From a virus: 12,967 nucleotides of DNA. A program made the translations under genes and the position numbers. Within the stretch, counting starts at the first letter, position 1. Each line of letters starts with the position of its first letter. Of the stretch, positions 804 to 12,510 are shown in pieces. The stretch lies in UHGV virus genome UHGV-0805728; one strand, written 5' to 3'. The notes under the pieces were generated by a model. It was given only the letters and a program-made list of their open reading frames with translations. It searched no databases and had not been told where the DNA came from.

Positions 804-1163
804 CTACAGATGGTTGCTGAGGGTGTCAAGAAAATTATCCCGTTCTTTCTCAGAGTTTTCATGGGTGTAGCTGAAAAACATATCGAGAATAACCTTATTG
901 ATATATTCCAGCTCCTCTGTATTCAGATACTTATCAGGATCTACAATGACTTCCCAAATATCGTACAGACCGCACTCATGATATCCCCAACGCCACTCAA
1001 TTGTTAAACCGAGCGGCAAATCTTTACCGTCACAAACAACCTTCCATCTACAGATGTTGGTATCTGGACGCACCTGTGCACGGTATACCTGTACAAAATC
1101 CAATTTGAATTTGAGGTACTCGTCATACAATTTAAGTACAAAGCTCTCGATTTGTGGAGACAC
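804..1163 (-). CDS. hypothetical protein; probably the C-terminal part of a ~177-aa gene interrupted by a frame break (see 1223..1336)
   Basis: ORF-track 119 aa, but its start is a GTG at 1163 with no ribosome-binding site; its frame is open upstream to about 1247 and runs into the 37-aa ORF at an A5 run. Confidence 0.55.
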   Translation of the reverse strand: MSPQIESFVLKLYDEYLKFKLDFVQVYRAQVRPDTNICRWKVVCDGKDLPLGLTIEWRWGYHECGLYDIWEVIVDPDKYLNTEELEYINKVILDMFFSYTHENSEKERDNFLDTLSNHL

Positions 1164-1222
1164 TTTTGCAGCAAACTGTGCGTATTTGTACTTGCACTGG
1201 ATGATCTTTCTGCGTTTTGCAG

Positions 1223-1336
1223 TTAAATTTTTGCAGACAACTGTTCTTCAGTGTACCTCCACCTACGGTCAACAAACGCAACAGGGTCTTTGTCCCCATA
1301 GAGATCTTCCCAGTTAATCAGAAGCATACCTGTCAT
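1223..1336 (-). CDS. small ORF (37 aa), likely the N-terminal part of the frame-disrupted gene continuing in 804..1163
   Basis: ATG at 1336 overlaps the TGA of ORF 1333..1566 (ATGA); product MTGMLLINWEDLYGDKDPVAFVDRRWRYTEEQLSAKI; stop TAA at 1225-1223 immediately after an A5 run (1228-1232). Confidence 0.35.
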   Translation of the reverse strand: MTGMLLINWEDLYGDKDPVAFVDRRWRYTEEQLSAKI

Positions 1337-1566
1337 TCCTCCACAACTTCAAGGCCTTTACCGCCCCTCTCTGGAAGATTGCCGAGGGATAGGTAGTAAG
1401 TATAGTCTGGTGAGATTCTACCCGCTTGTGCCCCTGCAGCGATCAAATCTTTTCCAGTGATCATAACAACGTTTTTGTTTGCCGTCAACCGTTTTGCTAC
1501 TACAATTTTACCGACGCAATCGATCAGTGATGGATACCCTAAATCTGTAAGAAATTTAACTTTCAT
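1333..1566 (-). CDS. hypothetical protein (77 aa)
   Basis: ORF-track; ATG at 1566 preceded by AGGAGGTAG; no family recognised. Confidence 0.6.
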   Translation of the reverse strand: MKVKFLTDLGYPSLIDCVGKIVVAKRLTANKNVVMITGKDLIAAGAQAGRISPDYTYYLSLGNLPERGGKGLEVVEE

Positions 1567-1605
1567 GCTACCTCCTACTTCTACCGTCCCTGGTAAGATA
1601 AATTA

Positions 1606-2004
1606 TTACTGAACAGAACGCGGAGCTGGGAAGGATAACTCTTCTAAAGAGAAGATTTCATTTCCTACCACCCAAGTTGCTGGATCATCTGGATCAACAG
1701 GTTGGATAATCATTACCTCATCAACCTTGCACACACGTTTCCCACCTATGGTAGCGTCAGCCACTAACATACGCGGCTCTTCAGAAATGCACAGGTAGCC
1801 ACCTCGGCCCACTGTTCCTTCTACAGGATCCTGCCCTTTGACAACGATGAATACCTTTTCTCCTGTGGCGATATTACTTTGCACACGGACAGTTTGACCA
1901 ACTTTAGAGGTACCGATCTTGGTGGCTTCAAACATTAAATCCCGAATTACTGTTGCATAGTTGCCGGAAACTTTCTTACCTTCTTTGGTGATCTCAATCT
2001 TCAT
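1606..2004 (-). CDS. hypothetical protein (132 aa)
   Basis: ORF-track; start ATG at 2004 overlaps the stop of the upstream ORF (ATGA); no family recognised. Confidence 0.65.
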   Translation of the reverse strand: MKIEITKEGKKVSGNYATVIRDLMFEATKIGTSKVGQTVRVQSNIATGEKVFIVVKGQDPVEGTVGRGGYLCISEEPRMLVADATIGGKRVCKVDEVMIIQPVDPDDPATWVVGNEIFSLEELSFPAPRSVQ

Positions 2005-2273
2005 AATTTAGGCTCCTTAAATGAATCTATGTAGTCAATTAAATCCCAAGCATCGCGATGGGCTGTCAGAGGATATACTTCTCCGAGAGGGATCATAGCG
2101 GCAAGTCTATCAAAAACCCAGTCTGGACGCAACATTTTATGGTGATATTCCCACTCACCTTCTACAGACTTTTTCTGAGTGATCAGGATCTCTGTGTAGT
2201 GTTTAGCCTGTCTTGAGTAGATTGAAAATGACTTGTACATAAATGGCCCCTCTTGTTGAAAACAAGAATACAT
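2001..2273 (-). CDS. hypothetical protein (90 aa; alternative start ATG 2240 gives 79 aa)
   Basis: ORF-track; ATG at 2273 lies 2 nt after the TAG of the upstream ORF; the internal ATG at 2240 has the better ribosome-binding site (AGAGGGG, about 6 nt spacing). Confidence 0.55.
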   Translation of the reverse strand: MYSCFQQEGPFMYKSFSIYSRQAKHYTEILITQKKSVEGEWEYHHKMLRPDWVFDRLAAMIPLGEVYPLTAHRDAWDLIDYIDSFKEPKL

Positions 2274-2275
2274 AA

Positions 2276-2560
2276 CTACCAGGTCACTGTCAAGTAGGCA
2301 ACTGTGTTATTTTTCTCTGGCGATATGCCAACAACATCCACTTGCAGACCTCCTGCCCTTAAATCTCCGACAATGTGTGGGAAGTAATCCGAGAGGTGTG
2401 ATGGAAGATTTATCGAAAATCCGCACCCCAGAAAGCCTGCTAACGCTTTATTTTGTATCTCCCCTACAATCGCATCGTAAATAGAGTTAAGCTCGTCAGG
2501 AAGCGTTACAGGACGTTTTAGCGCTAACTGGTGTAATTTGTCCTTAGCACTCATTTTCAT
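2276..2560 (-). CDS. hypothetical protein (94 aa from ATG 2560; ORF track extends to a GTG at 2590)
   Basis: ATG 2560-2558 overlaps the TGA 2559-2557 of the methyltransferase gene (ATGA coupling); the GTG at 2590 would overlap that gene by 34 nt. Confidence 0.55.
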   Translation of the reverse strand: MKMSAKDKLHQLALKRPVTLPDELNSIYDAIVGEIQNKALAGFLGCGFSINLPSHLSDYFPHIVGDLRAGGLQVDVVGISPEKNNTVAYLTVTW

Positions 2561-3090
2561 TTCAGATCTACCTCTGGTGGTGCCAACCACATAAATGGCG
2601 GCAAATCTAAACGGTTTTTCTTATCCCACACAAAATATGCATATGCTTGCCCGTCAGTTCTGCCATTGGACTGGAATGATGGGCGCTTAGATATTGTAAT
2701 CACTGTGGTAGGGGCATTTTCAAGCCACCACTCAAAACGTGCTTTACTTTCCAAGAAGTTGAGACGCAAAAGCATAATAACTACGTCAGCATCTTTCAAC
2801 GCCTTTTCTACAAACTCACGGGCCAGGCTGTAGGGAGGGTTGGTTATAATGCAGTCAACATGGTTGTATTCTGTATTCAAGTAGTCCACACCTTCTTGAA
2901 TCTCTCCCCATGCAGATCCTAACGGCATACGGGAGTAGAATACCCCGTTAACACTGTTTCGGCACGGCTCCAGATAAGTCCAGTTCTCCGGGAAATCAAT
3001 TAAGTTGTATAGACCTTCTGCACACCAATCTGGTGTAACATACTCATCATAAGCATTACGTTGTTCGTCAGGTTTTCTAGCGCAAGTCAT
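2557..3090 (-). CDS. DNA N6-adenine methyltransferase, small phage Dam-like (177 aa)
   Basis: Catalytic motif IV DCIITNPPYS (NPPY, typical of N6-adenine methyltransferases) and size about 170-180 aa as in small phage Dam-like enzymes; ATG 3090 preceded by GGAGA. Target site not determinable. Confidence 0.6.
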   Translation of the reverse strand: MTCARKPDEQRNAYDEYVTPDWCAEGLYNLIDFPENWTYLEPCRNSVNGVFYSRMPLGSAWGEIQEGVDYLNTEYNHVDCIITNPPYSLAREFVEKALKDADVVIMLLRLNFLESKARFEWWLENAPTTVITISKRPSFQSNGRTDGQAYAYFVWDKKNRLDLPPFMWLAPPEVDLK

Positions 3091-3104
3091 GCAAATCTCC
3101 AGAT

Positions 3105-3130
3105 CATAAAAGCCCTCCGAAGAGGGCTTT
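3105..3130 (-). terminator. intrinsic-terminator-like hairpin with UUCG tetraloop between the ClpP-like gene and the methyltransferase gene
   Basis: Perfect 9-bp inverted repeat, plus strand aaagccctc (3109-3117) cgaa gagggcttt (3122-3130); as minus-strand RNA AAAGCCCUC-UUCG-GAGGGCUUU followed by UAUGAU. It sits 12 nt after the stop at 3142-3144. Confidence 0.45.
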
Positions 3131-3141
3131 AAGATTAATAT

Positions 3142-3855
3142 TTAAGCTTCTTCGACAATTCCTGCACCCAGGATTTTTTCATTAAGCTCTTTTGCGGTTT
3201 TAATAATATTATCCACCAGACGCTTACGGGTCTTGTCTTTCACCTGAACCTCTTCGCCACCGTTCAGAGTAGTCTTCAATTGAGACAGAATATCCTGAAG
3301 TTCAACGACAGAGAATCGCTGCAGATCTTCTGAGGTAATCTCGCCGAGAGCGATCCGGACGGTCTCACCACTTTCCATCTGCAGATTCAGGAACACGGTG
3401 TGAACATCATCTTTCACACCATTTGCTTTTGCAGACTCGACAGCATGAACCAGTTCGTCCAGGGAGGTGCACTGGTGAATCTCTGGCAGACCTGCTTCAC
3501 CTAGTACCCCTTCATCACCTTTTGCCAGGAGCTTTTTCGGTTTCTGCCCGTTCTGGATACGCTGAATATTTTCATCGTCCAGAATGATAGCTCCAGTTCT
3601 AGCTGCCAGCTCCTCTCCGTCCAACCACACTTCTCCACCAGCCGTGATGGATGCGATCTCATCTTCTGTCAGCACCCCACCGTAGATTTTTCGATCAGAC
3701 GTTCGAAACGTTTTTTCCAGTAGCTGACCTGAGTATTCATGTTCACACCGTTGCCATAAGTGCCACCTTGGTAGTAGTGGAACATAAATTCTGTGTCCGG
3801 AGCCACAGTGCGTTCTTTGCAACCCAGCCATAAGATTGTCCCAGCAGAGCAGCAC
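3142..3855 (-). CDS. ClpP-like peptidase, C-terminal fold continuation plus ~175-aa extension (second frame of a frame-disrupted gene)
   Basis: ORF-track 237 aa, but the first ~48 residues (MLLCWDNLMAGLQRTHCGSGHRIYVPLLPRWHLWQRCEHEY...) look out-of-frame. From about 3712 downward the frame reads ...GGVLTEDEIASITAGGEVWLDGEELAARTGAI, which aligns without gaps to the ClpP C-terminal region (recalled E. coli ...RDRFLSAPEAVEYGLVD) once joined to ORF 3669..4187. Confidence 0.5.
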   Translation of the reverse strand: MLLCWDNLMAGLQRTHCGSGHRIYVPLLPRWHLWQRCEHEYSGQLLEKTFRTSDRKIYGGVLTEDEIASITAGGEVWLDGEELAARTGAIILDDENIQRIQNGQKPKKLLAKGDEGVLGEAGLPEIHQCTSLDELVHAVESAKANGVKDDVHTVFLNLQMESGETVRIALGEITSEDLQRFSVVELQDILSQLKTTLNGGEEVQVKDKTRKRLVDNIIKTAKELNEKILGAGIVEEA

Positions 3856-4187
3856 ATCCCTTCAGCATGTACAACAACGCTTGCCTGAGACTCGCGGAAT
3901 GCCTGTAGATATGCCATTGCAATGTGCACGCAACCACCAGGGCTATTGATGATCACCCGAATGCTTTCTTCCGGCTGAGCCATACGGATCGTCTGCAGAC
4001 GAGACATATGATCTTGTAGGTCTTCCAAGTCGTCGATATAAAGAACGTGGTCAACAACAGGTGTTGGGTAGCTATATGTCTCCATAATACCACCTGGCAT
4101 ACCAAACATTTTATTACTCATCGGTTCGAAGCCGTTCTGTTTTTCTTTCATGCCGTGTACCATGGTGCTGCGAGGTGTTAAATTCAT
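3669..4187 (-). CDS. ClpP-family serine peptidase, N-terminal and catalytic portion (first frame of a frame-disrupted gene)
   Basis: ORF-track 172 aa with IINSPGG, GMCCSAGT (Ser-motif region) and FHYYQGG (His-motif region), collinear with E. coli ClpP INSPGG...GQAASMGA...IHQPLGG from memory; ATG 4187 preceded by TAAGGACC. The frame stops before the C-terminal part of the fold. Confidence 0.7.
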   Translation of the reverse strand: MNLTPRSTMVHGMKEKQNGFEPMSNKMFGMPGGIMETYSYPTPVVDHVLYIDDLEDLQDHMSRLQTIRMAQPEESIRVIINSPGGCVHIAMAYLQAFRESQASVVVHAEGMCCSAGTILWLGCKERTVAPDTEFMFHYYQGGTYGNGVNMNTQVSYWKKRFERLIEKSTVGC

Positions 4188-4248
4188 GTGAGGTCCTTAA
4201 TGTTGGAAAATTAAAAGCGATCTATTTAAACCTGATTCTCATTTGCCT

Positions 4249-4560
4249 TTATTTGGCAATTACCATGGAATACTTGCGATTGTCAGAAGCATCACAGGTC
4301 AACGATTGCCAGTCTACCACATACCACGTGTCATTGTCAACAATTACTTTATCACCTGTTCTGTAAAAGGTGTTGCTTTCAATAACACGAGACTCAGTGA
4401 AGAATCGGTGTCTTCGCTCACGTAGTAGAGCCAAGTTGATTATATTACCACCGCTGTCCTTAATCCACACATTCTTGTATCCTTTATTTGCCAAAATTGT
4501 CTCGCCGTTATAGACAAACAGGCAGTAGATTTTATTCAATCTCTCTTGTATCGTAGCCAT
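4249..4560 (-). CDS. hypothetical protein (103 aa)
   Basis: ORF-track; ATG 4560 preceded by GAGGAGAAG and by a near-consensus promoter (4589-4617). Confidence 0.65.
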   Translation of the reverse strand: MATIQERLNKIYCLFVYNGETILANKGYKNVWIKDSGGNIINLALLRERRHRFFTESRVIESNTFYRTGDKVIVDNDTWYVVDWQSLTCDASDNRKYSMVIAK

Positions 4561-4588
4561 ACTGTTCTTCTCCTCGTTTTGTCAGGCA

Positions 4589-4617
4589 ATAATACCTAAA
4601 GCTTGTCTGTTTGTCAA
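4589..4617 (-). promoter_or_regulatory. sigma70-type (phage early-like) promoter P1: -35 TTGACA, 17-nt spacer, -10 TATTAT
   Basis: Minus strand reads TTGACA (4617-4612), aacagacaagctttagg, TATTAT (4594-4589); predicted transcription start about 4582, some 22 nt upstream of ATG 4560. Confidence 0.55.
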
Positions 4618-4635
4618 CAAGTGTTTTAGATATTC

Positions 4636-4656
4636 AAGGGTGGAATAACCACCCTT
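4636..4656 (-). other. RNA hairpin directly after the phoH stop codon (8-bp stem AAGGGTGG/CCACCCTT, 5-nt loop)
   Basis: Perfect inverted repeat, plus strand 4636-4643 and 4649-4656, 5 nt after the TAA at 4664-4662; no U-tract follows, so terminator function is uncertain. Confidence 0.35.
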
Positions 4657-4661
4657 ATATG

Positions 4662-5450
4662 TTACTCGGAAACAGGAGTCCAAATACGGTTTGCACGGTC
4701 CTCAATAAGATTGAGTGCAATCTGACGACCCAGCCCAGAACGAACAACATCGTCAGGACTATCAAAGCTAATCATCCCAACTTCAGGATCTGGATGTCGT
4801 GTAAAGAAATCTGTCACCCATGCAAGGCCAGATTTACCAGGGATGTCTCGTTGGCTATTGTCCCCCATAATTACAAGGGTGGCCTGATCGGAAATCCTTG
4901 TGATAATTGACAACATTTCTTCAGGGTTAGTTTGCTGTGCCTCGTCAATTAGGACAAAGCATCGTTCATCGAAACTACGACCACGAATGCTTTCAACTTC
5001 ACAAATCTCGATACGGCTGTTCTGACCGTCTCCCAGCATTGCTGCAAAAGCACCTTTGCCAACACGACGACAAATCGTGTCCATCATACTCCGAAGATAG
5101 GGCCACAGTTTCTGCATTGCATTCCCTGGTTTAAATCCTGAAGTCTTTCCTGTCTGAACGTAAGGGCGTGCAACAATGATCTTATCAATCTCGTTTTTAC
5201 GTAACAGATCTCCTGCATAGGCAGATGCCATAAATGTCTTACCAGACCCAAACACACCGTTTACGATAATAATCTTACGTGACCCTAAATAATCAAGATA
5301 CTTTTGCTGCTTCTTATTCATCGGTCGGAGAGCTGGAGCGGTGTGCTCTCGTTCGTCAGCAAATTTCTCAGCAGCTTTACGCAAACGATCAGATTTACGA
5401 GCCTCTCTGGCTTCATCACGCATGCGTTTTGTTTCTTTAGCTCGACCCAT
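4662..5450 (-). CDS. phoH: PhoH-like ATPase (262 aa) with a ~43-aa charged N-terminal extension
   Basis: Walker A GVFGSGKT, Walker B FVLIDEAQ, and GDNSQRD, typical of PhoH-family proteins; ATG 5450 preceded by AAAGGAG. Confidence 0.9.
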   Translation of the reverse strand: MGRAKETKRMRDEAREARKSDRLRKAAEKFADEREHTAPALRPMNKKQQKYLDYLGSRKIIIVNGVFGSGKTFMASAYAGDLLRKNEIDKIIVARPYVQTGKTSGFKPGNAMQKLWPYLRSMMDTICRRVGKGAFAAMLGDGQNSRIEICEVESIRGRSFDERCFVLIDEAQQTNPEEMLSIITRISDQATLVIMGDNSQRDIPGKSGLAWVTDFFTRHPDPEVGMISFDSPDDVVRSGLGRQIALNLIEDRANRIWTPVSE

Positions 5451-5488
5451 GGTGGGACTCCTTTCAGATTGAGATGTGTCTGGAACTT

Positions 5489-5839
5489 TTACTGCAACAG
5501 TTTTTCAATAGCCGCTTCCATGCTGCTTGCAACAGCCTGAACTCGGATATTCATCTCTTCTTGGTGGATCAGCTCCTTAAGCTCTTTAACGGTAAATTCC
5601 TTAGAGAAACCTTCCACCATAATATTGTGTAAGGCTTCTTGCGTGTCTACTTGCAAGAACTTCTCCAGTTTGTTGGCAGAGGCTTCTAAATCAGCCCGAA
5701 TACGAGGATCATCTGTGCGATTCAGCATTAGGCGCAAGCCATCGAGATTAGTAGAAATAGCGTCAGCATGTTGAGTAACTAGCCGTGGCAAAATGAGATC
5801 TACAAACTTATTAGCCAAATCAATACGTTCTTGTGTCAC
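5489..5839 (-). CDS. hypothetical protein (116 aa), predicted helical
   Basis: ORF-track; GTG start at 5839 preceded by GAGGGGG and overlapping the TGA of the 37-aa Lys-rich ORF (GTGA). Confidence 0.6.
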   Translation of the reverse strand: MTQERIDLANKFVDLILPRLVTQHADAISTNLDGLRLMLNRTDDPRIRADLEASANKLEKFLQVDTQEALHNIMVEGFSKEFTVKELKELIHQEEMNIRVQAVASSMEAAIEKLLQ

Positions 5840-5949
5840 TGTTGCACCCCCTCTTCGTCCTCATGATGTTTCTTTTCACGCTTGTGTTTTTTCTTAAGCT
5901 CAAGCGCAATCTCTTTTTTGTACGCCTTCTTCAAGGCCTTTTTAGCCAT
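5836..5949 (-). CDS. small Lys-rich basic peptide (37 aa)
   Basis: ATG at 5949 preceded by AGAGGGGG and by consensus promoter P2; product MAKKALKKAYKKEIALELKKKHKREKKHHEDEEGVQQ. Not in ORF track (under 60 aa). Confidence 0.4.
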   Translation of the reverse strand: MAKKALKKAYKKEIALELKKKHKREKKHHEDEEGVQQ

Positions 5950-5980
5950 TTGGCACCCCCTCTGCTTTCATTTTACGATA

Positions 5981-6010
5981 ATTATACCCGTCTAAACAAA
6001 GCTTTGTCAA
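5981..6010 (-). promoter_or_regulatory. sigma70-type (phage early-like) promoter P2: -35 TTGACA, 18-nt spacer, -10 TATAAT
   Basis: Minus strand reads TTGACA (6010-6005), aagctttgtttagacggg, TATAAT (5986-5981), starting 4 nt after the nrdG stop; predicted transcription start about 5974, upstream of ATG 5949. Confidence 0.6.
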
Positions 6011-6013
6011 CAA

Positions 6014-6487
6014 TTAGTCTACCTGAACCCACCCACCTGCTACTTTTTTAAACATTCTTTGGTTATCGCTTCCTCGGAACGGTTTCTTGGTTGGCAAATC
6101 TTTTATATACTTACCATCAATGATGATATCAGCCAGTTTAAGAACATCACTAGAGATATGGTCAAATGTGAACCCAGTATACACAAGAATAGTTTTCTTG
6201 TCACCAAATTTTTCCTTAATTTTCTCCATCAGGCCAATAATACCTGGCTCATTATAGTATGCCAAGGGTTCTCCACCCAGCAGAGAGATACCGCACACAG
6301 ACGGGTTGTCCAAATCTGACAAGATTTTTTGCAAGTCTTCCTCGGTGAACTCTCTCCCCTTATCTTTTGACCAAAATGCCTGATTAAAGCAACCAGGGCA
6401 AGCGTGTGGGCACCCAGATACCCACAAGGCAGTTCTAATACCTGGCCCTTCGGTGTAAGATATTTCTGTGTATCCGGCAATGTTCAT
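6014..6487 (-). CDS. nrdG: anaerobic ribonucleotide reductase activating protein (radical-SAM activase), 157 aa from ATG 6487
   Basis: Cys cluster GCPHACPGCFN characteristic of NrdG-type activases; the ATG at 6487 has an ACGGAG ribosome-binding site and an ATGA overlap with the upstream small ORF. The ORF-track start at 6505 has no ribosome-binding site. Confidence 0.85.
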   Translation of the reverse strand: MNIAGYTEISYTEGPGIRTALWVSGCPHACPGCFNQAFWSKDKGREFTEEDLQKILSDLDNPSVCGISLLGGEPLAYYNEPGIIGLMEKIKEKFGDKKTILVYTGFTFDHISSDVLKLADIIIDGKYIKDLPTKKPFRGSDNQRMFKKVAGGWVQVD

Positions 6488-6600
6488 AGATACTCCGTAC
6501 CACATTCAGGGCAATACCAAATAAAATCATCCAGCGCCTTGCACCAACGAAGATTACAATGACAACCGCACTTGCAAATTTTATAAATACCTGTAGACAT
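6484..6600 (-). CDS. small Cys-rich zinc-ribbon-like protein (38 aa)
   Basis: ATG 6600 preceded by GAGG at about 8 nt; product MSTGIYKICKCGCHCNLRWCKALDDFIWYCPECGTEYL with 7 Cys (CKCGCHC...CPEC); stop overlaps the nrdG ATG (ATGA). Not in ORF track (under 60 aa). Confidence 0.4.
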   Translation of the reverse strand: MSTGIYKICKCGCHCNLRWCKALDDFIWYCPECGTEYL

Positions 6601-6630
6601 ACTGCACCTCATAGTTCACTGTGTATCAAC

Positions 6631-6660
6631 AATATGCCACATCCTTGTGACTTTTGTCAA
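6631..6660 (-). promoter_or_regulatory. candidate sigma70-type promoter P3 (perfect -35 TTGACA, weak -10 CATATT or TATTGT)
   Basis: TTGACA at 6660-6655 begins 3 nt after the nrdD stop, as in P1 and P2; the -10 element is only a 4/6 match. Confidence 0.3.
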
Positions 6661-6663
6661 GCA

Positions 6664-6903
6664 TCAGCAACCACAACTTCCATAGTGCTTAACTCGCTCG
6701 ATAACTTCAGCTTGCTTGCCTCTATTGTAAGGACGTGAGTTAGGACTGGAAAGGTATCCAGACACACGTCGAATTACACTGATCGTTCCCTCTTCGTGGT
6801 TTCCACAGTCTGGACATACAAAGCCTTTAGCTGTCGCGCTGAACTCACCAGAGAAACCACACTTGAGACATTTATCCACGGGCTGGTTAATACCAAAATA
6901 CAT
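6664..6903 (-). CDS. nrdD: anaerobic ribonucleotide reductase NrdD, C-terminal glycyl-radical/zinc-ribbon segment (third frame piece)
   Basis: YFGINQPVDKCLKCGFSGEF...CPDCGNH...RRVSGYL matches the recalled E. coli NrdD C-terminus (YMGINVPVDRCFECGFTGEF...CPKCGNH...RRVCGYLG); its frame is open only from 6909 and overlaps the central ORF. Confidence 0.8.
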   Translation of the reverse strand: MYFGINQPVDKCLKCGFSGEFSATAKGFVCPDCGNHEEGTISVIRRVSGYLSSPNSRPYNRGKQAEVIERVKHYGSCGC

Positions 6904-8555
6904 AATGTGTTATACCCGAAGTCAACAAGAGCCTCTAAAGCATCCAGGTTGTTTTTCAGGTTAGGTGTCTCTATGTATCCAATGTTGCCACCAGAGGAGA
7001 TCATAGCAAAACCTTCTTCATACTTCCACTTATCAAAAGGTGAACTATTGATCCATACTGGTTGGTGGAAACTGTTGGTGATATATTCATGCTCGTGCTT
7101 CAATACCTCAGGATATTCACGATCCAGACAGGTTGCAGCTTTGTAGCATAAGCTTTCAGAAGGGGTGCCGTACAAGCTGAATGCTAGACCACTTTCCTTT
7201 TTGTACCGATCACAAGCATCTTTCATGTGCTGAAGGATTCCAAGAGCTAAAGCCTTGTCTCCCTCTCTCCCCAAAATCTGACAGGTTTCATACACACCAA
7301 TATACCCAATACTGATGGAAGCGTACCCGTCATAGAAGAGTTTATCAATACTCTCTTCAGGATCCAAGCGAGCAAGAGCGCCTTCACACCACATGATGGG
7401 GTTCTGACCTGCCTTTGTCCCTTTTAGGCGGTTAACCCTTACAAGGTGAGCTTCATATGCCAAATCCAGATACTCGTCAAGAACGGTAAAGAAGTCAACA
7501 CCTTCTGTTTTAGCTTTTGCTGCAATCATTGGTAGGTTGAGGCTAACAACACCCAAGTTGAATCTGCCGAGGTATTTCTCCTCACCTGTTTCTAAGTCAT
7601 TGTATTTGCTAAGAAAACTCCGGCAACCCATGCTCGTTACTTTGCCATCTGTAGAACCTGTCACCTTACGATTTAGCGGAACAGAAACAAAGTCAGGATA
7701 AATTCGCTCTGCAGAGCATTCCAGAGCTAATCGTTTCAAATCATAGTTAGGATCCTCAGGGTTCATGTTGACACCCTCTTCTAAGAAGAACAGCACTTTA
7801 GGGAACACAGGTGTGATCCGTTCTTCACCAAGACCCATTTTGTGGACTTTCAGGTAGTTTTTGGTAATCATTCTACCAAATACCGAGGTATCAAGTCCTA
7901 AACTTAATGTTATGAACGGAGTTTGCCCGTTGACAGAAGTTAATGTGTTGATTTGATAAAGCAACGTCTGCATACTGTCAAACACGTCTTTATCGGTCAT
8001 CTGCATTGCAACGCCTTCAGCATCCGGCAACCAATGCTCCTGACAAAATTTAAGGTTCTTCTCATAGGTAGCTTCAGCATACTGTGCCAGATAATGATCA
8101 ATATGGCTCATAGTCTGACCACCATATTGAGCACTAGCCACTGCACTAGAGATTTGGCTAAGGATTGTTGTTGCAACCCCTATTGACTTAGGCTTGCTGA
8201 CATGGGCGTTACCAATGTTGAATCCGTTTTCCAGCATATCTGGATAATTTACCAAACAACAGTTTGTTAGAGGGCTGATCAGATAGTCAAGATCATGTAC
8301 ATGGATGAAGCCTTTTATTGTGCTCTTCGGAGACACGGTCTGGCAGGATCTGTGTTGATGCAAGGTGTTTGCTAAGGATGCCTGCAAGCAGGTCACGATG
8401 AGTGTGTACATGATTGGTAGGCTTATTTGCGTTTTCTTTTGTAAATTCATCACAAGTGCGATCCAAGAAGCCACTAATATCTGCAAGAAGTTTTCCACCT
8501 GCCTCTCTGTTATTATCCCTTGTCTGTCTGTATTGGATGTATTCTCTGGCTGCAC
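6774..8555 (-). CDS. nrdD: anaerobic ribonucleotide reductase NrdD, central catalytic segment (second frame piece)
   Basis: From about 8315 the frame reads KGFIHVHDLDY...NIGNAHVSKPKSIG...QYGGQT, collinear with recalled E. coli NrdD (GDIHYHDLDY...MGNAEIEPPKSIS...IYGGTT). The first ~80 and last ~43 residues of the 593-aa ORF look out-of-frame. Confidence 0.85.
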   Translation of the reverse strand: MQPENTSNTDRQGIITERQVENFLQILVASWIALVMNLQKKTQISLPIMYTLIVTCLQASLANTLHQHRSCQTVSPKSTIKGFIHVHDLDYLISPLTNCCLVNYPDMLENGFNIGNAHVSKPKSIGVATTILSQISSAVASAQYGGQTMSHIDHYLAQYAEATYEKNLKFCQEHWLPDAEGVAMQMTDKDVFDSMQTLLYQINTLTSVNGQTPFITLSLGLDTSVFGRMITKNYLKVHKMGLGEERITPVFPKVLFFLEEGVNMNPEDPNYDLKRLALECSAERIYPDFVSVPLNRKVTGSTDGKVTSMGCRSFLSKYNDLETGEEKYLGRFNLGVVSLNLPMIAAKAKTEGVDFFTVLDEYLDLAYEAHLVRVNRLKGTKAGQNPIMWCEGALARLDPEESIDKLFYDGYASISIGYIGVYETCQILGREGDKALALGILQHMKDACDRYKKESGLAFSLYGTPSESLCYKAATCLDREYPEVLKHEHEYITNSFHQPVWINSSPFDKWKYEEGFAMISSGGNIGYIETPNLKNNLDALEALVDFGYNTLCILVLTSPWINVSSVVSLVSSARQLKALYVQTVETTKRERSV

Positions 8556-8787
8556 ATTTTAAACCCATATCCATAAGAGCATCTTCAACAAGGATATGGA
8601 TATTTTTTACAGAGATTGTGCCCTGATCGGCTGGTAGATTGTTAGCAACAGCTTCATTAACCGCGCAGGCGATCCGGTAAGCTTCTTCTTCAGTATGTCC
8701 AGACTCAAGTAAGGCGGACTCTGCCGCCTTGATCACCTTAATTCCGTTATAGACCTCTTCTCTACCGTCTCGTTTTACAACTTTCAC
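8293..8787 (-). CDS. nrdD: anaerobic ribonucleotide reductase NrdD, N-terminal ATP-cone segment (first frame piece)
   Basis: MKVVKRDGREEVY... and ENANKPTNHVHTHRDLLAGILSKH match the NrdD N-terminus (recalled E. coli NENANKDSKVIPTQRDLLAGIVAKH); ATG 8787 overlaps the nrdC stop (ATGA); frame ends at 8293 right after an A4 run. Confidence 0.8.
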   Translation of the reverse strand: MKVVKRDGREEVYNGIKVIKAAESALLESGHTEEEAYRIACAVNEAVANNLPADQGTISVKNIHILVEDALMDMGLKCAAREYIQYRQTRDNNREAGGKLLADISGFLDRTCDEFTKENANKPTNHVHTHRDLLAGILSKHLASTQILPDRVSEEHNKRLHPCT

Positions 8788-9062
8788 TTTTTCTCTCCAA
8801 AATTGTTCTTAACAAAAGAGATGAAATCGTCAGCACCACCAATGTGGACACTGTCAAGGTCGCTTTCTAAGAAGATTTGAGGTAACGTTCTGGGAACAAT
8901 TGGGCTACACTTCTTAATAAGCTCTTCTTTTGTATAGCCCTCCCCTAGCGTCTTGTATACAAAAGGTAGACCTTTACTGACTGCAAATTCTTTTGCTCTT
9001 ACACAATGTGGACAATTATCCTTACCGTAAATAATGATGAAAAAAGATTTTTCACAACTCAT
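8784..9062 (-). CDS. nrdC: glutaredoxin-like redoxin (92 aa)
   Basis: CPHC active-site motif near the N-terminus, TLPQIF (cis-Pro region) and HIGGADDF (GG motif), positioned between nrdB and nrdD. Confidence 0.8.
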   Translation of the reverse strand: MSCEKSFFIIIYGKDNCPHCVRAKEFAVSKGLPFVYKTLGEGYTKEELIKKCSPIVPRTLPQIFLESDLDSVHIGGADDFISFVKNNFGEKK

Positions 9063-9065
9063 ATA

Positions 9066-10154
9066 TTAAAACTCCCAAATTTCTTCTTCAGCGTCGTTAA
9101 CAGTTGTGTTGACGCGGTAGTCAGTGTTCGACATTTCTTGGTTCGCCGTCTGTTGCAATGAAGGTTTCATCCACACCTGCATAAACGGTAGCGGGTCCTT
9201 TGTTGGCGGCACAAAGTCTTTGTCGATGTCGTAGTAATCATAAATCGGTGAGCAGTTATAGTCAACCCATTCTTTAAGCAACGGTGAGTTAAGACCTATA
9301 ATCGCTCTTCCTTCGCTGAAAATATAGTCACTCCAACCGTACTCCTTGGTTCGTACTTCATCAAGAATCTCTTTTAACTCTCCCTTTATCTCAAGGAAGC
9401 TTTTCTCCCATGCTGGATCATTAAGCAGGATATCAATGATGGCAAAATCACCTTTCGAATGCAGCATTTCGTCAAGCATGATTTTTTGAACAAGCTGCGC
9501 CACCTGAACAAAAATACCCTGTTCAGCTACTGCGAAAGTGCATGCAAAACTTGCAATAAACTCAATACTCTCCAGAGCTAAAAGTGCAAAAAGCGCTCTA
9601 AGAATGCATTTCCGTACAATATCTTCTTCAACACTGGAAGGATCCAGTCGGTATTTTGCACCAATAACCTCAAGCTCTTGCATATATTTGACAATAACCC
9701 CAGATCTGCTTAGCACGTTCTGGTTTTCCTGAATTTCTTCTATGATCTCGCGAGCATTAGGTAGGCACTGTCTAACAATCTCTGAGTAAGTAAGTGCGTG
9801 AAGAACTTCAATCTCCGACTGCTTCATCAACAGAGCGAAAAGCTCACTATTAGTGATGAATGGTGAAAAGAGGCAGATGATTGATCTTGCCGCAACGCTA
9901 TCAGCCTCCCATTGCCACATCAAGGTCTGCACCATCACGTCATAAGTTGACTTTGAGCATGTTACAAAATCTGAAATAGATTGCGACAAATCCACTTCAT
10001 CCTCTGCCCAATCCTGTTCTTTTTGTTTTTTATACAGTTCAAACAGTTGTGGGTATTTTTTATTGATAGAGTCATACATCCCCATTTGCTGTCCAAGAAA
10101 CAGAGGATAGTCACCAGTTTTATGAGCGGTGTTCTCAGCATTAAATACAGCCAT
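9066..10154 (-). CDS. nrdB: ribonucleotide reductase class Ia small (beta) subunit (362 aa)
   Basis: Full-length collinearity with E. coli NrdB from memory, including ESIEFIASFACTFAVAE (iron-ligand region; E. coli EAIRFYVSFACSFAFAE) and the acidic C-terminal tail ...EEEIWEF; ATG 10154 preceded by AGAGG. Confidence 0.9.
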   Translation of the reverse strand: MAVFNAENTAHKTGDYPLFLGQQMGMYDSINKKYPQLFELYKKQKEQDWAEDEVDLSQSISDFVTCSKSTYDVMVQTLMWQWEADSVAARSIICLFSPFITNSELFALLMKQSEIEVLHALTYSEIVRQCLPNAREIIEEIQENQNVLSRSGVIVKYMQELEVIGAKYRLDPSSVEEDIVRKCILRALFALLALESIEFIASFACTFAVAEQGIFVQVAQLVQKIMLDEMLHSKGDFAIIDILLNDPAWEKSFLEIKGELKEILDEVRTKEYGWSDYIFSEGRAIIGLNSPLLKEWVDYNCSPIYDYYDIDKDFVPPTKDPLPFMQVWMKPSLQQTANQEMSNTDYRVNTTVNDAEEEIWEF

Positions 10155-10165
10155 TATTCTACCTC

Positions 10166-10186
10166 TAAAATGGGGCCGAAGCCCCC
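10166..10186 (-). terminator. GC hairpin with UUCG tetraloop plus U4 tract between nrdA and nrdB (terminator or attenuator-like)
   Basis: Plus strand ggggc (10172-10176) cgaa gcccc (10181-10185); as minus-strand RNA GGGGC-UUCG-GCCCC followed by AUUUUAG, ending about 12 nt before the nrdB ATG. Confidence 0.4.
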
Positions 10187-10193
10187 TTTAAAA

Positions 10194-11507
10194 TTACAGT
10201 GCACAACTTTCGCAGTATGGATCTTCAACTGAACTATCTGCGATCAAAGGATAGTTCTTTCTGGTTTCATCTTCAGCCTGTTTCTTGGCATGAAGTTCCT
10301 CTGCCAGTGAGTCACCAGCACCAACCCTAGAGTTTAAATAATACCATGTCTTCATCCCGAATTTAGTGGCACGGATAAGGTACCCTAGTTGCTCCTTCAT
10401 TGAAATTTTACCATCTTTCAACTTGGTGTAATCTATGTATAAATCAGCGCTGATTGCCTGACCTGTGAATTTTTGAATCACGGCATACATATCGATCATG
10501 TCGTTGGTATCAACGTCCCAAGCCGAAGTGTAATACTCTTTCAACTCATCGTATTCAGGAACGATAAACAGCACCTGCCCTTGTGGAGACTTTTTAAAGA
10601 TAATGTGCTCACGGACAGGATAAACCCCGTTAGTGGTGTTTGTTGCCAGCGAAGAGCTTTCATTAGGCATATATGCTTCAAGAACGCTATTACGTAGCCC
10701 ACCATTTTCAATGATTTGTTTACGTAACCCTTCCCAATCCTGTTTAAGAGAAGGATCTTTCACCACACTGTCGACCTCTTTGTTATAGGTGTCGATTGGT
10801 AACCAACCCTCCGGGTATTTTGTTTTATGCATCCACTCACAGACACCACGCTCTTTTGCCAATCGTAAACTTGCTTTGTGCAAGCTGTAGCTGTGAAGCT
10901 CTGCAAGATCATGGACAAGCTGTTTACTTTCCGGAGATCCGTAAGTAACCTTGTGGCTGGCAATAAAATGTGCAACATTGGTAAGGCCAACCCCGATAGA
11001 TCTGCGTTTTTTAACCGTGCTCTCCATATTCTCATACGGATATGTCATGATTTCCATAACATTGTCAATCATAAGCACCGTGTAGTATGCAACATCTTCA
11101 TACTCCTCTGGGGTAACCCTCCCAGCTACAAGAGATGATAGGAAGCACAATGCAACCTCACCATCATCAGCATCGTACTTGAAGATATTACGCATATCTG
11201 AATAGCCTTTTGTCGGAAGGGCTATCTCGGCACACAGGTTGCTTGAATAGATTACATCTTTAAAAGGTGTATGTCTATTCATCTCGTCTGTCCAGTATAC
11301 GTACAGTCTTCCTACCTCAGTACGCTGCGTGATAAGTTCAGCAGCAAGATCTCTAGCACGGATCCATGTTTTAGGAATACTGTCATCTTTAGCGATCCGA
11401 TCAACCTCTGCATCAAACTCTTCCATAGACATGGTGAAGATGCCTTCATGTAGCTGAGGTGCGTGCTTATAAGAAACAAGCATCCAATCTAAATTTTTAG
11501 TCCACAC
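10194..11507 (-). CDS. nrdA: ribonucleotide reductase class Ia large (alpha) subunit, C-terminal catalytic segment (second frame piece)
   Basis: 437-aa ORF with SNLCAEIALPT (active-site Cys loop; recalled E. coli SNLCLEIALPT) and collinear downstream sequence; its GTG at 11507 has no ribosome-binding site. Confidence 0.9.
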   Translation of the reverse strand: MWTKNLDWMLVSYKHAPQLHEGIFTMSMEEFDAEVDRIAKDDSIPKTWIRARDLAAELITQRTEVGRLYVYWTDEMNRHTPFKDVIYSSNLCAEIALPTKGYSDMRNIFKYDADDGEVALCFLSSLVAGRVTPEEYEDVAYYTVLMIDNVMEIMTYPYENMESTVKKRRSIGVGLTNVAHFIASHKVTYGSPESKQLVHDLAELHSYSLHKASLRLAKERGVCEWMHKTKYPEGWLPIDTYNKEVDSVVKDPSLKQDWEGLRKQIIENGGLRNSVLEAYMPNESSSLATNTTNGVYPVREHIIFKKSPQGQVLFIVPEYDELKEYYTSAWDVDTNDMIDMYAVIQKFTGQAISADLYIDYTKLKDGKISMKEQLGYLIRATKFGMKTWYYLNSRVGAGDSLAEELHAKKQAEDETRKNYPLIADSSVEDPYCESCAL

Positions 11508-12510
11508 GGTTGATAAACGACCTATTAATACCTATGGAATAATCCATAGTGTTGATTCTTTTTGAAGCAACAGTCATAGGGTTTCTCAAACGGATTAGCT
11601 CATCAATCTGAGGGTCCAGTGCAAGGAATGACACTGTTGCCGAACCACCACGGGATTGTTGTCTATTCTCCTTAACCCCGGCATCAATACCACGATAATA
11701 TGGAAGCTTGCCCATATGTTTAATCGTGTTACCACGAACACCATCGCCTGCAGATCTTGACGATAAATAGTAGCCAATACCTGCTTGGTTAACCGTCATT
11801 GTGTACGCAACTTCCCGTGCCACACCAATAGACTTTGCTGTATCGTCAGCTTTTATTACGCAACAAGATGCATACCCTGTCTTACCTGTGCGTAGACCGT
11901 TTAAGTACGGTGTCGGAGCATTGATCTTTAAGTCTGACAGATAAGTGTATAATTTTACAACATCGTTAATACGGCGTTCTTTCGGCATATTCTTCATGAC
12001 AGCCATCGCTATCCCCATAAACATCATCTGGGGAGATTCAAACAGGGTGTCTTTAAGAGTATCCTTGATCCCGTATTTGTCACGAAACTGTTTAAGGACT
12101 GCATAGCCATAACCGAGATCTTTACTGTGATCAATAACAGTATTTAAAGTGTTTAACTCAGTAAAGCTATAACCCATATCCTCCCAATACCCTTTCTCAA
12201 CCATGGTATTGTAGAATGAGGGTAAGGAAGGGATCTTTGTAAATCCTCCAAAAGCCTCTTTGTAGATCTGACCAATAAGAACACGACCAGCCATACGGGA
12301 ATGTGCTTCGTCTTTACGGCTAACACATGAATCTATAATAGCCTGGTTAACTTCTTTGGTTGTGCATCCATCATACAGACGTTTGTATGCATCCATTGCA
12401 ATATGTGACCAATTGCCGTTACCGTCGTCACCGAAAATAGCTGCCTTATTTAAACGTTCTGGATCGAATTCAACTTCACATCCGTTACTTTTAATTACTT
12501 TGGTGATCAA
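11497..12510 (-). CDS. nrdA: ribonucleotide reductase class Ia large (alpha) subunit, N-terminal segment with ATP cone (first frame piece)
   Basis: 337-aa ORF starting MITKVIKSNGCEVEFDPERL (ATP-cone-like) and ending at ...INTMDYSIGINRSFINRVD (recalled E. coli ...RHMDYGVQINKLMYTRL); TTG start at 12510 preceded by GGAGGAAG at 7 nt spacing. Confidence 0.9.
   Translation of the reverse strand: MITKVIKSNGCEVEFDPERLNKAAIFGDDGNGNWSHIAMDAYKRLYDGCTTKEVNQAIIDSCVSRKDEAHSRMAGRVLIGQIYKEAFGGFTKIPSLPSFYNTMVEKGYWEDMGYSFTELNTLNTVIDHSKDLGYGYAVLKQFRDKYGIKDTLKDTLFESPQMMFMGIAMAVMKNMPKERRINDVVKLYTYLSDLKINAPTPYLNGLRTGKTGYASCCVIKADDTAKSIGVAREVAYTMTVNQAGIGYYLSSRSAGDGVRGNTIKHMGKLPYYRGIDAGVKENRQQSRGGSATVSFLALDPQIDELIRLRNPMTVASKRINTMDYSIGINRSFINRVD

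What the first reader, a model, noticed from the sequence alone, without database searches (positions are those of the whole stretch)
11497..11531. nrdA large subunit is broken by a +1 frame change at the 11-nt overlap of two ORFs
The N-terminal ORF ends ...INRSFINRVD-stop at 11499-11497. The C-terminal frame is open from 11531 and reads ...VWTKNLDWMLVSYKHAP. Skipping one nucleotide anywhere in about 11500-11531 gives a gap-free match to the recalled E. coli NrdA stretch INKLMYTRLLKGEDITLFSPSDVP. The downstream piece starts at a GTG with no ribosome-binding site, so a true two-gene split is poorly supported. Candidates are a 1-nt insertion error, a pseudogene, or +1 recoding at the GAC-TAA stop.
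Basis: partly seen in the sequence, partly recalled or inferred. Interest (0 to 1): 0.7.

Follow-up and report, generated by a model that had tools for sequence, protein, structure and literature searches.

The report
Spurious extra base splits phage nrdA
The ribonucleotide reductase large-subunit gene of this rV5-like E. coli phage looks broken only because the sequence carries one extra base, almost certainly a sequencing or assembly error, so this is ordinary.

Summary
On the minus strand, a 337-aa ORF (12510..11497) and a 437-aa ORF (11507..10194) overlap by 11 nt. Together they make one class Ia NrdA, with the second piece in the +1 frame.

The cause is one extra base at window 11501 (T on the + strand, A on the coding strand: GTG GCT AAA became GTG GAC TAA). 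Removing it gives a 771-aa NrdA identical to the NrdA of a nearly identical phage contig. That protein aligns with E. coli R1 in one stretch, with no gap at the junction.

No other sequence I could search has the extra base. This covers 118 GenBank Vequintavirus records and about 25 metagenome or Logan contigs.

The window has four more private single-T indels, at 1227, 3685, 6909 and 8313. Each breaks a gene that is intact in relatives.

Two other assemblies of the same strain have no substitutions against the window:
- GCA_001292545.1 carries a different set of 1-nt indels. One is in the A5 run that starts 3 nt downstream of the extra base.
- The Logan contig of ERR975171 starts and ends exactly at two of the window's indel sites.

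This pattern indicates read or assembly error. It does not fit recoding, a functional split gene or an old pseudogene. Interest is low.

The parts
11497..12510 (-). 5' part of nrdA. A 337-aa ORF with a TTG start, as annotated in relatives, covering the all-alpha domain and barrel profile positions 1-125. It ends at a premature TAA (11499-11497).
   Evidence: The start matches the 771-aa nrdA annotated in CarlMeissner, nimi and rV5_ev147.
11501..11501 (-). The extra base: A on the coding strand, T on the + strand. Wild-type GTG GCT AAA AAT reads GTG GAC TAA here.
   Evidence: It is absent from all aligned relatives. None of 118 GenBank records matches the 81-nt junction at 100%.
11494..11498 (-). 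A5 homopolymer on the coding strand. It starts 3 nt downstream of the extra base. A sister assembly of the same strain (L026) has A4 here.
   Evidence: window GGACTAAAAATTT, L008 GGCTAAAAATTT, L026 GGCTAAAATTT.
10194..11531 (-). 3' part of nrdA in the +1 frame. The frame is open from 11531, and the mechanical ORF runs 11507..10194 (437 aa). It covers barrel profile positions 127-523 and the C-terminal CxxC tail.
8313..8313 (-). Second private indel of the same kind: an extra T on the + strand (T3 to T4). It breaks nrdD after its ATP-cone. nrdD is 707 aa and intact in relatives.
6909..6910 (-). Third private indel: a missing T between these positions (T3 to T2). It breaks the C-terminal end of nrdD.
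3685..3686 (-). Fourth private indel: a missing T next to a T5 run. It splits the ClpP-like protease gene (348-349 aa in relatives) into ORFs 3669..4187 and 3142..3855.
1227..1228 (-). Fifth private indel: T6 to T5 on the + strand. It splits a 174-aa hypothetical gene into ORFs 1223..1336 and 804..1163.

Best explanation
The window comes from a Vequintavirus (rV5-like E. coli myovirus). It carries an ordinary, single 771-aa class Ia nrdA. The apparent split is an artefact: one spurious base at 11501 was written into this assembly.

The likely source is noisy, indel-prone reads, possibly from flow-based chemistry. The spurious base is an A on the coding strand, and an A5 run begins 3 nt downstream of it. 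The same error process produced four more private single-T/A indels in this 13-kb window.

Shown:
- the extra base and its uniqueness to this sequence;
- perfect restoration of the protein when it is removed;
- assemblies of the same strain that differ from the window only by 1-nt indels.

Inferred:
- that the cause is read or consensus error, as opposed to a real variant;
- the sequencing chemistry.
For: 1. The extra base is private to the window. It is absent from V18, CarlMeissner, nimi, rV5_ev147 and Aya. It is also absent from every metagenome or Logan contig that covers the site. No record among 118 GenBank phages matches the 81-nt junction perfectly. The exact insertion-bearing string is absent from the viral, metagenome and genome collections.

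2. Deleting 11501 yields a 771-aa protein 100% identical to the NrdA of contig L008. It gives one HMMER stretch, residues 9-735 against E. coli R1 residues 11-742.

3. A 90-aa peptide spanning the junction is encoded uninterrupted in one frame in 642 of 659 phage records. Of all matching records, 120 are at 95% identity or more.

4. The window has five private 1-nt indels, all T on the + strand. All lie in genes that are intact elsewhere.

5. L026 (GCA_001292545.1, a human gut metagenome assembly) has 0 mismatches but 8 gap columns against the whole window. It carries its own frame breaks in nrdB and nrdA, one of them A5 to A4 in the run next to this site.

6. L028 (the Logan assembly of ERR975171) has 0 mismatches. 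It runs exactly from window 1228 to 11500, so both ends abut window-specific indel sites. It also has its own missing T at 2615.

7. Near-identical contigs from other runs (L008, L027, L029) are wild type at every covered site.
Against: - No reads could be inspected, so a real minority or majority variant in the sampled phage population is not formally excluded.
- The insertion at 11501 is not itself inside a homopolymer, so it is not the most classic homopolymer-length miscall.
- The sequencing platform behind the window was not established with the tools.
- The window's own source record was not found in any collection.
Confidence: 0.9

Rival explanations
1. The extra base is a real, very recent frameshift mutation. 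It could be a null allele or a subpopulation variant of the phage in that sample. Such a variant might be tolerated because the E. coli host supplies its own RNR and the phage also has an anaerobic NrdD.
For: The Logan contig of ERR975171 stops exactly at the site. That is what a de Bruijn graph does when reads carry two alleles, and it fits real heterogeneity as well as error. Phage RNR genes are often dispensable in the laboratory (general knowledge).
Against: It would need five independent inactivating 1-nt indels in 13 kb with zero substitutions relative to sister assemblies, two of them in nrdD, the supposed back-up. Each sister assembly would also need a different private set of such indels. 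Other runs of the near-identical phage are clean.
Confidence: 0.07
2. This is programmed +1 ribosomal frameshifting at GAC-UAA-A. It would produce full-length NrdA with Asp in place of Ala at residue 337, in the manner of prfB.
For: A stop codon sits in the A site at the shift point. Skipping the U of UAA gives ...NRVDKNLDW..., the same length as wild-type ...NRVAKNLDW....
Against: - The site does not exist in any relative, including genomes that are 99.9-100% identical, so nothing is conserved.
- tRNA-Asp on GAC cannot re-pair with ACU.
- No Shine-Dalgarno-like element lies 3 nt upstream (AUCAACCGUGUG, by inspection).
- The downstream RNA folds no better than shuffled controls (z = -1.0).
- The four other frame breaks in the window have unrelated contexts.
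Confidence: 0.01
3. This is a functional genes-in-pieces NrdA. Two polypeptides (1-337 and about 338-771) would be translated separately and assemble, as in Aeromonas phage Aeh1.
For: There is precedent for an active split NrdA in phage Aeh1 (PMC3045599). GTG 11507 and ATG 11483 lie within 15 nt of the stop codon, so termination-reinitiation is conceivable.
Against: - Neither candidate start has a ribosome-binding site.
- There is no intervening mobile element and no added tail sequences. The tails were essential for activity in Aeh1.
- The split point differs: it corresponds to about E. coli residue 346, whereas Aeh1 is split between Cys439 and Cys462.
- No relative shares the arrangement.
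Confidence: 0.01

Closest known systems
Class Ia ribonucleotide reductase large subunit NrdA of Vequintavirus phages (rV5, V18, Murica, nimi, CarlMeissner), with E. coli R1 as the structural reference
   Same: The gene order matches relatives: DUF8047 gene, nrdA, nrdB, glutaredoxin gene, nrdD, nrdG-like gene. DNA identity is 93-98%. After removing one base the protein is 771 aa, identical to a metagenomic homologue, and collinear with E. coli R1, including the catalytic Cys/Asn/Glu and Tyr-Tyr motifs.
   Different: Only the single extra base at 11501, which no relative has.
Flow-chemistry (454 or Ion Torrent type) or other indel-prone read and consensus errors in metagenome assemblies
   Same: The lesions are single-base indels of one base type, inside or within 3 nt of runs of that base. 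They are private to each assembly of the same strain, occur without accompanying substitutions, and coincide with contig breaks in an independent assembly of the run.
   Different: The platform was not verified here. The 11501 event is an insertion next to a homopolymer, not a length change inside one.
Aeromonas phage Aeh1 split nrdA-a / mobE / nrdA-b (PMC3045599)
   Same: A phage nrdA that appears as two ORFs.
   Different: Aeh1 has a homing endonuclease gene between the pieces, independent translation signals and essential tail peptides. Its split point also differs (between E. coli Cys439 and Cys462). None of these features is present here.
prfB-type programmed +1 frameshifting
   Same: A +1 frame change at an in-frame stop codon.
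   Different: There is no slippery P-site codon, no upstream Shine-Dalgarno stimulator and no conservation.

Membership tests
Class Ia RNR large subunit (NrdA / R1) | The all-alpha domain (PF00317) is followed by a complete ten-stranded barrel domain (PF02867). | tested here: met
   PF00317 lies in ORF 1. PF02867 positions 1-125 are in ORF 1 and positions 127-523 are in ORF 2, so the domain is contiguous once the frame is repaired.
Class Ia RNR large subunit (NrdA / R1) | Catalytic residues are conserved: E. coli C225, N437/C439/E441, C462 and Y730/Y731, plus the C-terminal Cys pair. | tested here: met
   alignment: SCC aligns with SC(225), sNLCaEia with sNLClEia, aLCfls with aLCtls, and twYYln with tlYYqn. 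The protein ends ...YCESCAL.
Class Ia RNR large subunit (NrdA / R1) | The gene lies next to an nrdB small-subunit gene. | tested here: met
   The ORF at 9066..10154 matches PF00268.
Programmed +1 ribosomal frameshift site | The shift site and the two-frame layout are conserved among homologues. | tested here: not met
   no relative has the site. The junction is in one frame in 642 of 659 phage records.
Programmed +1 ribosomal frameshift site | The P-site codon lets its tRNA re-pair in the +1 frame (for example CUU U), and an upstream Shine-Dalgarno-like stimulator is present. | tested here: not met
   Sequence: GUG GAC UAA A. GAC shifted +1 gives ACU, which cannot re-pair. The upstream sequence AUCAACCGUGUG has no GGAGG-like element.
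Genes-in-pieces split NrdA (Aeh1 type) | A mobile endonuclease gene lies between the pieces, and each piece carries an added tail peptide. | tested here: not met
   The two ORFs overlap by 11 nt and nothing is inserted. The Pfam profile is continuous from 125 to 127. Criteria are from PMC3045599.
Genes-in-pieces split NrdA (Aeh1 type) | The downstream piece has its own translation start signal. | tested here: not met
   No Shine-Dalgarno-like sequence lies 5-10 nt upstream of GTG 11507 or ATG 11483.
Sequencing or assembly indel artefact | The lesion is private to one assembly, and other assemblies of the same strain differ only by indels, not substitutions. | tested here: met
   L026 has 0 mismatches and 8 gap columns. 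L028 has 0 mismatches and 4 gaps. Each has its own private indels.
Sequencing or assembly indel artefact | Read-level disagreement or low quality at the site. | not testable with these tools
   Only indirect evidence is available. The Logan contig of ERR975171 ends exactly at window 11500 and 1228, next to two indel sites.

The most novel reading that the evidence does not exclude
The extra base is a genuine allele circulating in the sampled gut phage population. That phage would either live without its aerobic RNR large subunit or recover a trace of full-length NrdA (A337D) through unprogrammed +1 slippage at GAC-UAA-A.
Probability: 0.03. Interest if true: 0.25.

Novelty: not a real feature. 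Interest (0 to 1): 0.04.

Why it matters
It matters only for data quality. The window, and probably the whole assembly it comes from, carries about one frame-breaking single-base indel per 2.6 kb. Gene calls from it will therefore fragment real genes. nrdA, nrdD, the ClpP-like gene and a 174-aa gene are all affected here.

Split genes in this source should not be read as pseudogenes, recoding sites or genes-in-pieces without read support. There are no biological implications for ribonucleotide reductase or for recoding.

Tried and rejected
- **Exact-protein look-ups.** Neither nrdA piece is on record, so the source contig was not found.
- **Viral and JGI metagenome collections.** Scans for both the insertion-bearing and the wild-type junction strings returned zero for both alleles. 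These collections are therefore uninformative.
- **Genome collection.** A scan for the insertion allele returned zero.
- **Rfam.** A search of the window and of two relatives with interrupted nrdD found nothing at gathering threshold.
- **Literature.** ERR975171 gave no hits. CYGL01 gave only the description 'assembly HumMal, Ma_F259_Contig_n', human gut metagenome. The paper I believe describes this project (Reyes et al. 2015, PNAS, Malawian twin viromes) is not held. The 454 platform therefore rests on my memory and is unverified.
- **Downstream frameshift stimulator.** I looked for a stimulatory RNA structure downstream of the stop and rejected it (z = -1.0).
- **Alignment correction.** A first MAFFT alignment suggested L026 lacked the adjacent C. 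Direct inspection showed its difference is A5 to A4 in the neighbouring homopolymer.

Full report
**What is in the sequence**

All genes in the window lie on the minus strand. The ORF at 12510..11497 (337 aa) ends ...INRSFINRVD followed by TAA at 11499-11497. The next frame (+1) is closed by TAG at 11534-11532 and open from 11531. It reads ...VWTKNLDWMLVSYKHAP, and its mechanical ORF is 11507..10194 (437 aa). The two ORFs overlap by 11 nt.

Pfam puts the RNR all-alpha domain and barrel profile positions 1-125 in the first ORF. Barrel positions 127-523 are in the second. The two ORFs are therefore abutting halves of one class Ia NrdA.

**Where the window comes from**

Megablast places the window in Vequintavirus, the rV5-like E. 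coli myoviruses. It is 98% identical to Vequintavirinae sp. EcoIv14a_Aya and 93-95% identical to more than 100 other records.

In annotated relatives nrdA is a single gene of 771 aa. It starts at the position equivalent to window 12510 (CarlMeissner, nimi and rV5_ev147).

**The lesion**

Alignment shows exactly one extra base in the window at 11501, a T on the + strand and an A on the coding strand. Wild-type ...AAC CGT GTG GCT AAA AAT TTA GAT TGG... reads ...GTG GAC TAA... here.

Deleting that base gives a 771-aa protein with no internal stop. It is 100% identical to the NrdA of contig L008 from run ERR11010907. Against PDB sequences it gives one HMMER stretch, residues 9-735 against E. coli R1 residues 11-742, at E = 4e-132. 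There is no gap at the junction, and the catalytic Cys, Asn, Glu and Tyr-Tyr motifs are conserved.

**Is the extra base seen anywhere else?**

It is not.
- None of 118 GenBank phage records that match the 81-nt junction matches it at 100%. The best is 98.8%, which is the one gap.
- A 90-aa peptide spanning the repaired junction is encoded uninterrupted in one frame in 642 of 659 phage records. Of all matching records, 120 are at 95% identity or more.
- Every metagenome or Logan contig retrieved through identical neighbouring proteins and covering the site lacks the base. Every such contig has a single 771-aa nrdA apart from L010 and L026. Those two carry frame breaks of their own at other positions.
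- The insertion-bearing string is absent from the viral, JGI metagenome and GTDB genome collections. The first two also lack the wild-type string, so they say little.

**The lesion is not alone**

Relative to all comparators, the window has five private 1-nt indels.

| Position | Change on + strand | Context |
|---|---|---|
| 1227 | T lost | T6 to T5 |
| 3685 | T lost | next to a T5 run |
| 6909 | T lost | T3 to T2 |
| 8313 | T gained | T3 to T4 |
| 11501 | T gained | 3 nt from a T5 run |

All five are T on the + strand. Each breaks a gene that is intact in relatives:
- a 174-aa hypothetical gene;
- the ClpP-like protease gene (348-349 aa);
- nrdD (707 aa), broken twice;
- nrdA.

Every other indel in the alignments is either shared with Aya, is 3 or 9 nt long, or differs only between the window-plus-Aya pair and nimi/rV5_ev147. 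The ones I checked by coordinate lie between ORFs.

**Sister assemblies settle the matter**

Three retrieved contigs have zero substitutions against the window.

- **L026** is NCBI GCA_001292545.1, contig CYGL01000294.1. A paper describes CYGL01 as 'assembly HumMal, Ma_F259_Contig_n' from human gut metagenomic sequences (PMC10888812). It matches all 12,967 nt with 0 mismatches and 8 gap columns. It is wild type at all five window sites. It has its own private deletions at 10026 (which splits nrdB), at 11856 (nrdA) and in the A5 run at 11498-11494, which is A4 there. That run begins 3 nt downstream of the window's extra base.
- **L028** is the Logan assembly of run ERR975171. It has 0 mismatches and is wild type at 3685, 6909 and 8313. 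It has its own missing T at 2615. It spans exactly window 1228 to 11500, beginning 'CTAAAAATTT' and ending '...CTGCAAAAA'. Both contig ends therefore fall on the base next to a window-specific indel. A de Bruijn graph breaks at such a point when reads disagree there.
- **L029** (ERR2368558) has 0 mismatches over 3.6 kb and differs from the window only at 3685, where it is wild type.

L008 and L027, from other runs, differ from the window by 4-5 substitutions. They are wild type at every covered site and have no private indels.

A set of assemblies of one strain that differ by nine 1-nt indels and no substitutions, each with a different private set, indicates read or consensus error. Mutation would not produce that pattern.

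**Likely mechanism of the error (inference)**

All the lesions are single A/T indels inside or within 3 nt of A/T runs. On the coding strand the window reads GG[A]CTAAAAA where the wild type reads GGCTAAAAA, and the sister assembly reads GGCTAAAA.

In flow-based sequencing, out-of-phase signal from a 5-mer can leak into the preceding flow of the same nucleotide and create a spurious single base. It can also depress the 5-mer call. This would explain both miscalls at this spot.

From memory, the 'HumMal' project is the Malawian twin gut virome study of Reyes et al. 2015, which used 454 pyrosequencing. I could not verify this, because the paper is not held.

**Rivals**

1. *Real recent frameshift allele.* The exact contig break in ERR975171 fits two alleles in the reads as well as it fits error, so I cannot exclude this without reads. 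It would require five inactivating indels in 13 kb, two of them in nrdD, with no substitutions. The sister assemblies would need different private sets as well. I give it about 7%.

2. *Programmed +1 recoding at GAC-UAA-A.* Skipping the U would give NRVDKNLDW, the same length as wild-type NRVAKNLDW. Several points argue against it:
   - The site is absent from all relatives.
   - GAC cannot re-pair with ACU.
   - There is no Shine-Dalgarno-like stimulator upstream.
   - The downstream RNA folds no better than shuffled controls (z = -1.0).
   - The other four breaks have unrelated contexts.
   I give it about 1%.

3. *Functional split NrdA as in phage Aeh1.* The Aeh1 case involves a mobE insertion between E. 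coli Cys439 and Cys462, independent translation of the two pieces, and tail peptides that are essential for activity (PMC3045599). Here nothing is inserted, there are no tails and no ribosome-binding site, and the split point is different (about E. coli residue 346). No relative shares the layout. I give it about 1%.

**Verdict**

The finding is a correct observation of an artefact. The gene is an ordinary Vequintavirus nrdA. The extra base at 11501 should be treated as a sequencing or assembly error, and the other four breaks in the window should be treated the same way. The novelty category is 'not a real feature', and interest is very low.

Noticed in passing
window 8313 and 6909-6910 (nrdD, ORFs 8293..8787, 6774..8555, 6664..6903): The anaerobic RNR gene nrdD is broken twice in the window by private single-T indels (one gained, one lost). 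It is a single 707-aa gene in relatives and in zero-substitution sister assemblies.
   Followed up: yes
window 3685-3686 (ORFs 3669..4187 and 3142..3855): The ClpP-like protease gene (348-349 aa in relatives) is split by a private missing T next to a T5 run.
   Followed up: yes
window 1227-1228 (ORFs 1223..1336 and 804..1163): A 174-aa hypothetical gene is split by a T6-to-T5 change. The Logan contig of ERR975171 ends inside this run.
   Followed up: yes
L026 (GCA_001292545.1 CYGL01000294.1), equivalent to window 10026, 11494-11498 and 11856: This public metagenome assembly of the same phage strain has its own frame-breaking deletions. nrdB is split into 63 + 309 aa and nrdA into 218 + 124 + 412 aa. 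The whole project's assemblies therefore look indel-prone.
   Followed up: partly
L007, L012, L018 (locus coordinates about 6700-7600 in L012); L014, L019 (about 7070-7830): In some Vequintavirus relatives nrdD is interrupted at two different positions. At one, an HNH_3 ORF of 177 aa sits between pieces of 287 aa and 402-427 aa. At the other, the gene is in pieces of 389 aa and 321 aa, and in L014 a 169-aa ORF is called in the gap. Rfam found no group I intron at gathering threshold in L012 or L014. Whether these are introns, inteins or free-standing endonuclease insertions is open.
   Followed up: partly
GenBank records MG065635, MG065652-55, MG065666, MG065684: About 20 records named 'Campylobacter phage', with host C. 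jejuni, are about 93% identical to E. coli rV5-like phages over this whole window. Their junction peptides are 99-100% identical. This looks like contamination or host misattribution.
   Followed up: no
L006 (LR597647.1 rV5_ev147) and L005 (nimi) annotation tables: Product names look shifted by one gene in LR597647. 'ClpP' is on a 103-aa ORF, 'PhoH-like' is on a 116-aa ORF, and the real ClpP and PhoH genes are called hypothetical. The nrdG-like radical-SAM gene is called 'minor capsid protein' in nimi.
   Followed up: no
window 12507-12510; L001 (V18) CDS 807..2906: The nrdA start is annotated inconsistently among relatives. Most use a TTG that overlaps the upstream gene's stop by 4 nt (771 aa). 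V18 uses an internal ATG (699 aa).
   Followed up: no
L010 (Logan DRR023333_2124): Another run's assembly of a 97%-identical phage also shows several frame breaks at other positions. nrdA is 510 + 280 aa, thyX is shortened and nrdD is split. This is a second example of an error-prone dataset for this phage group.
   Followed up: no
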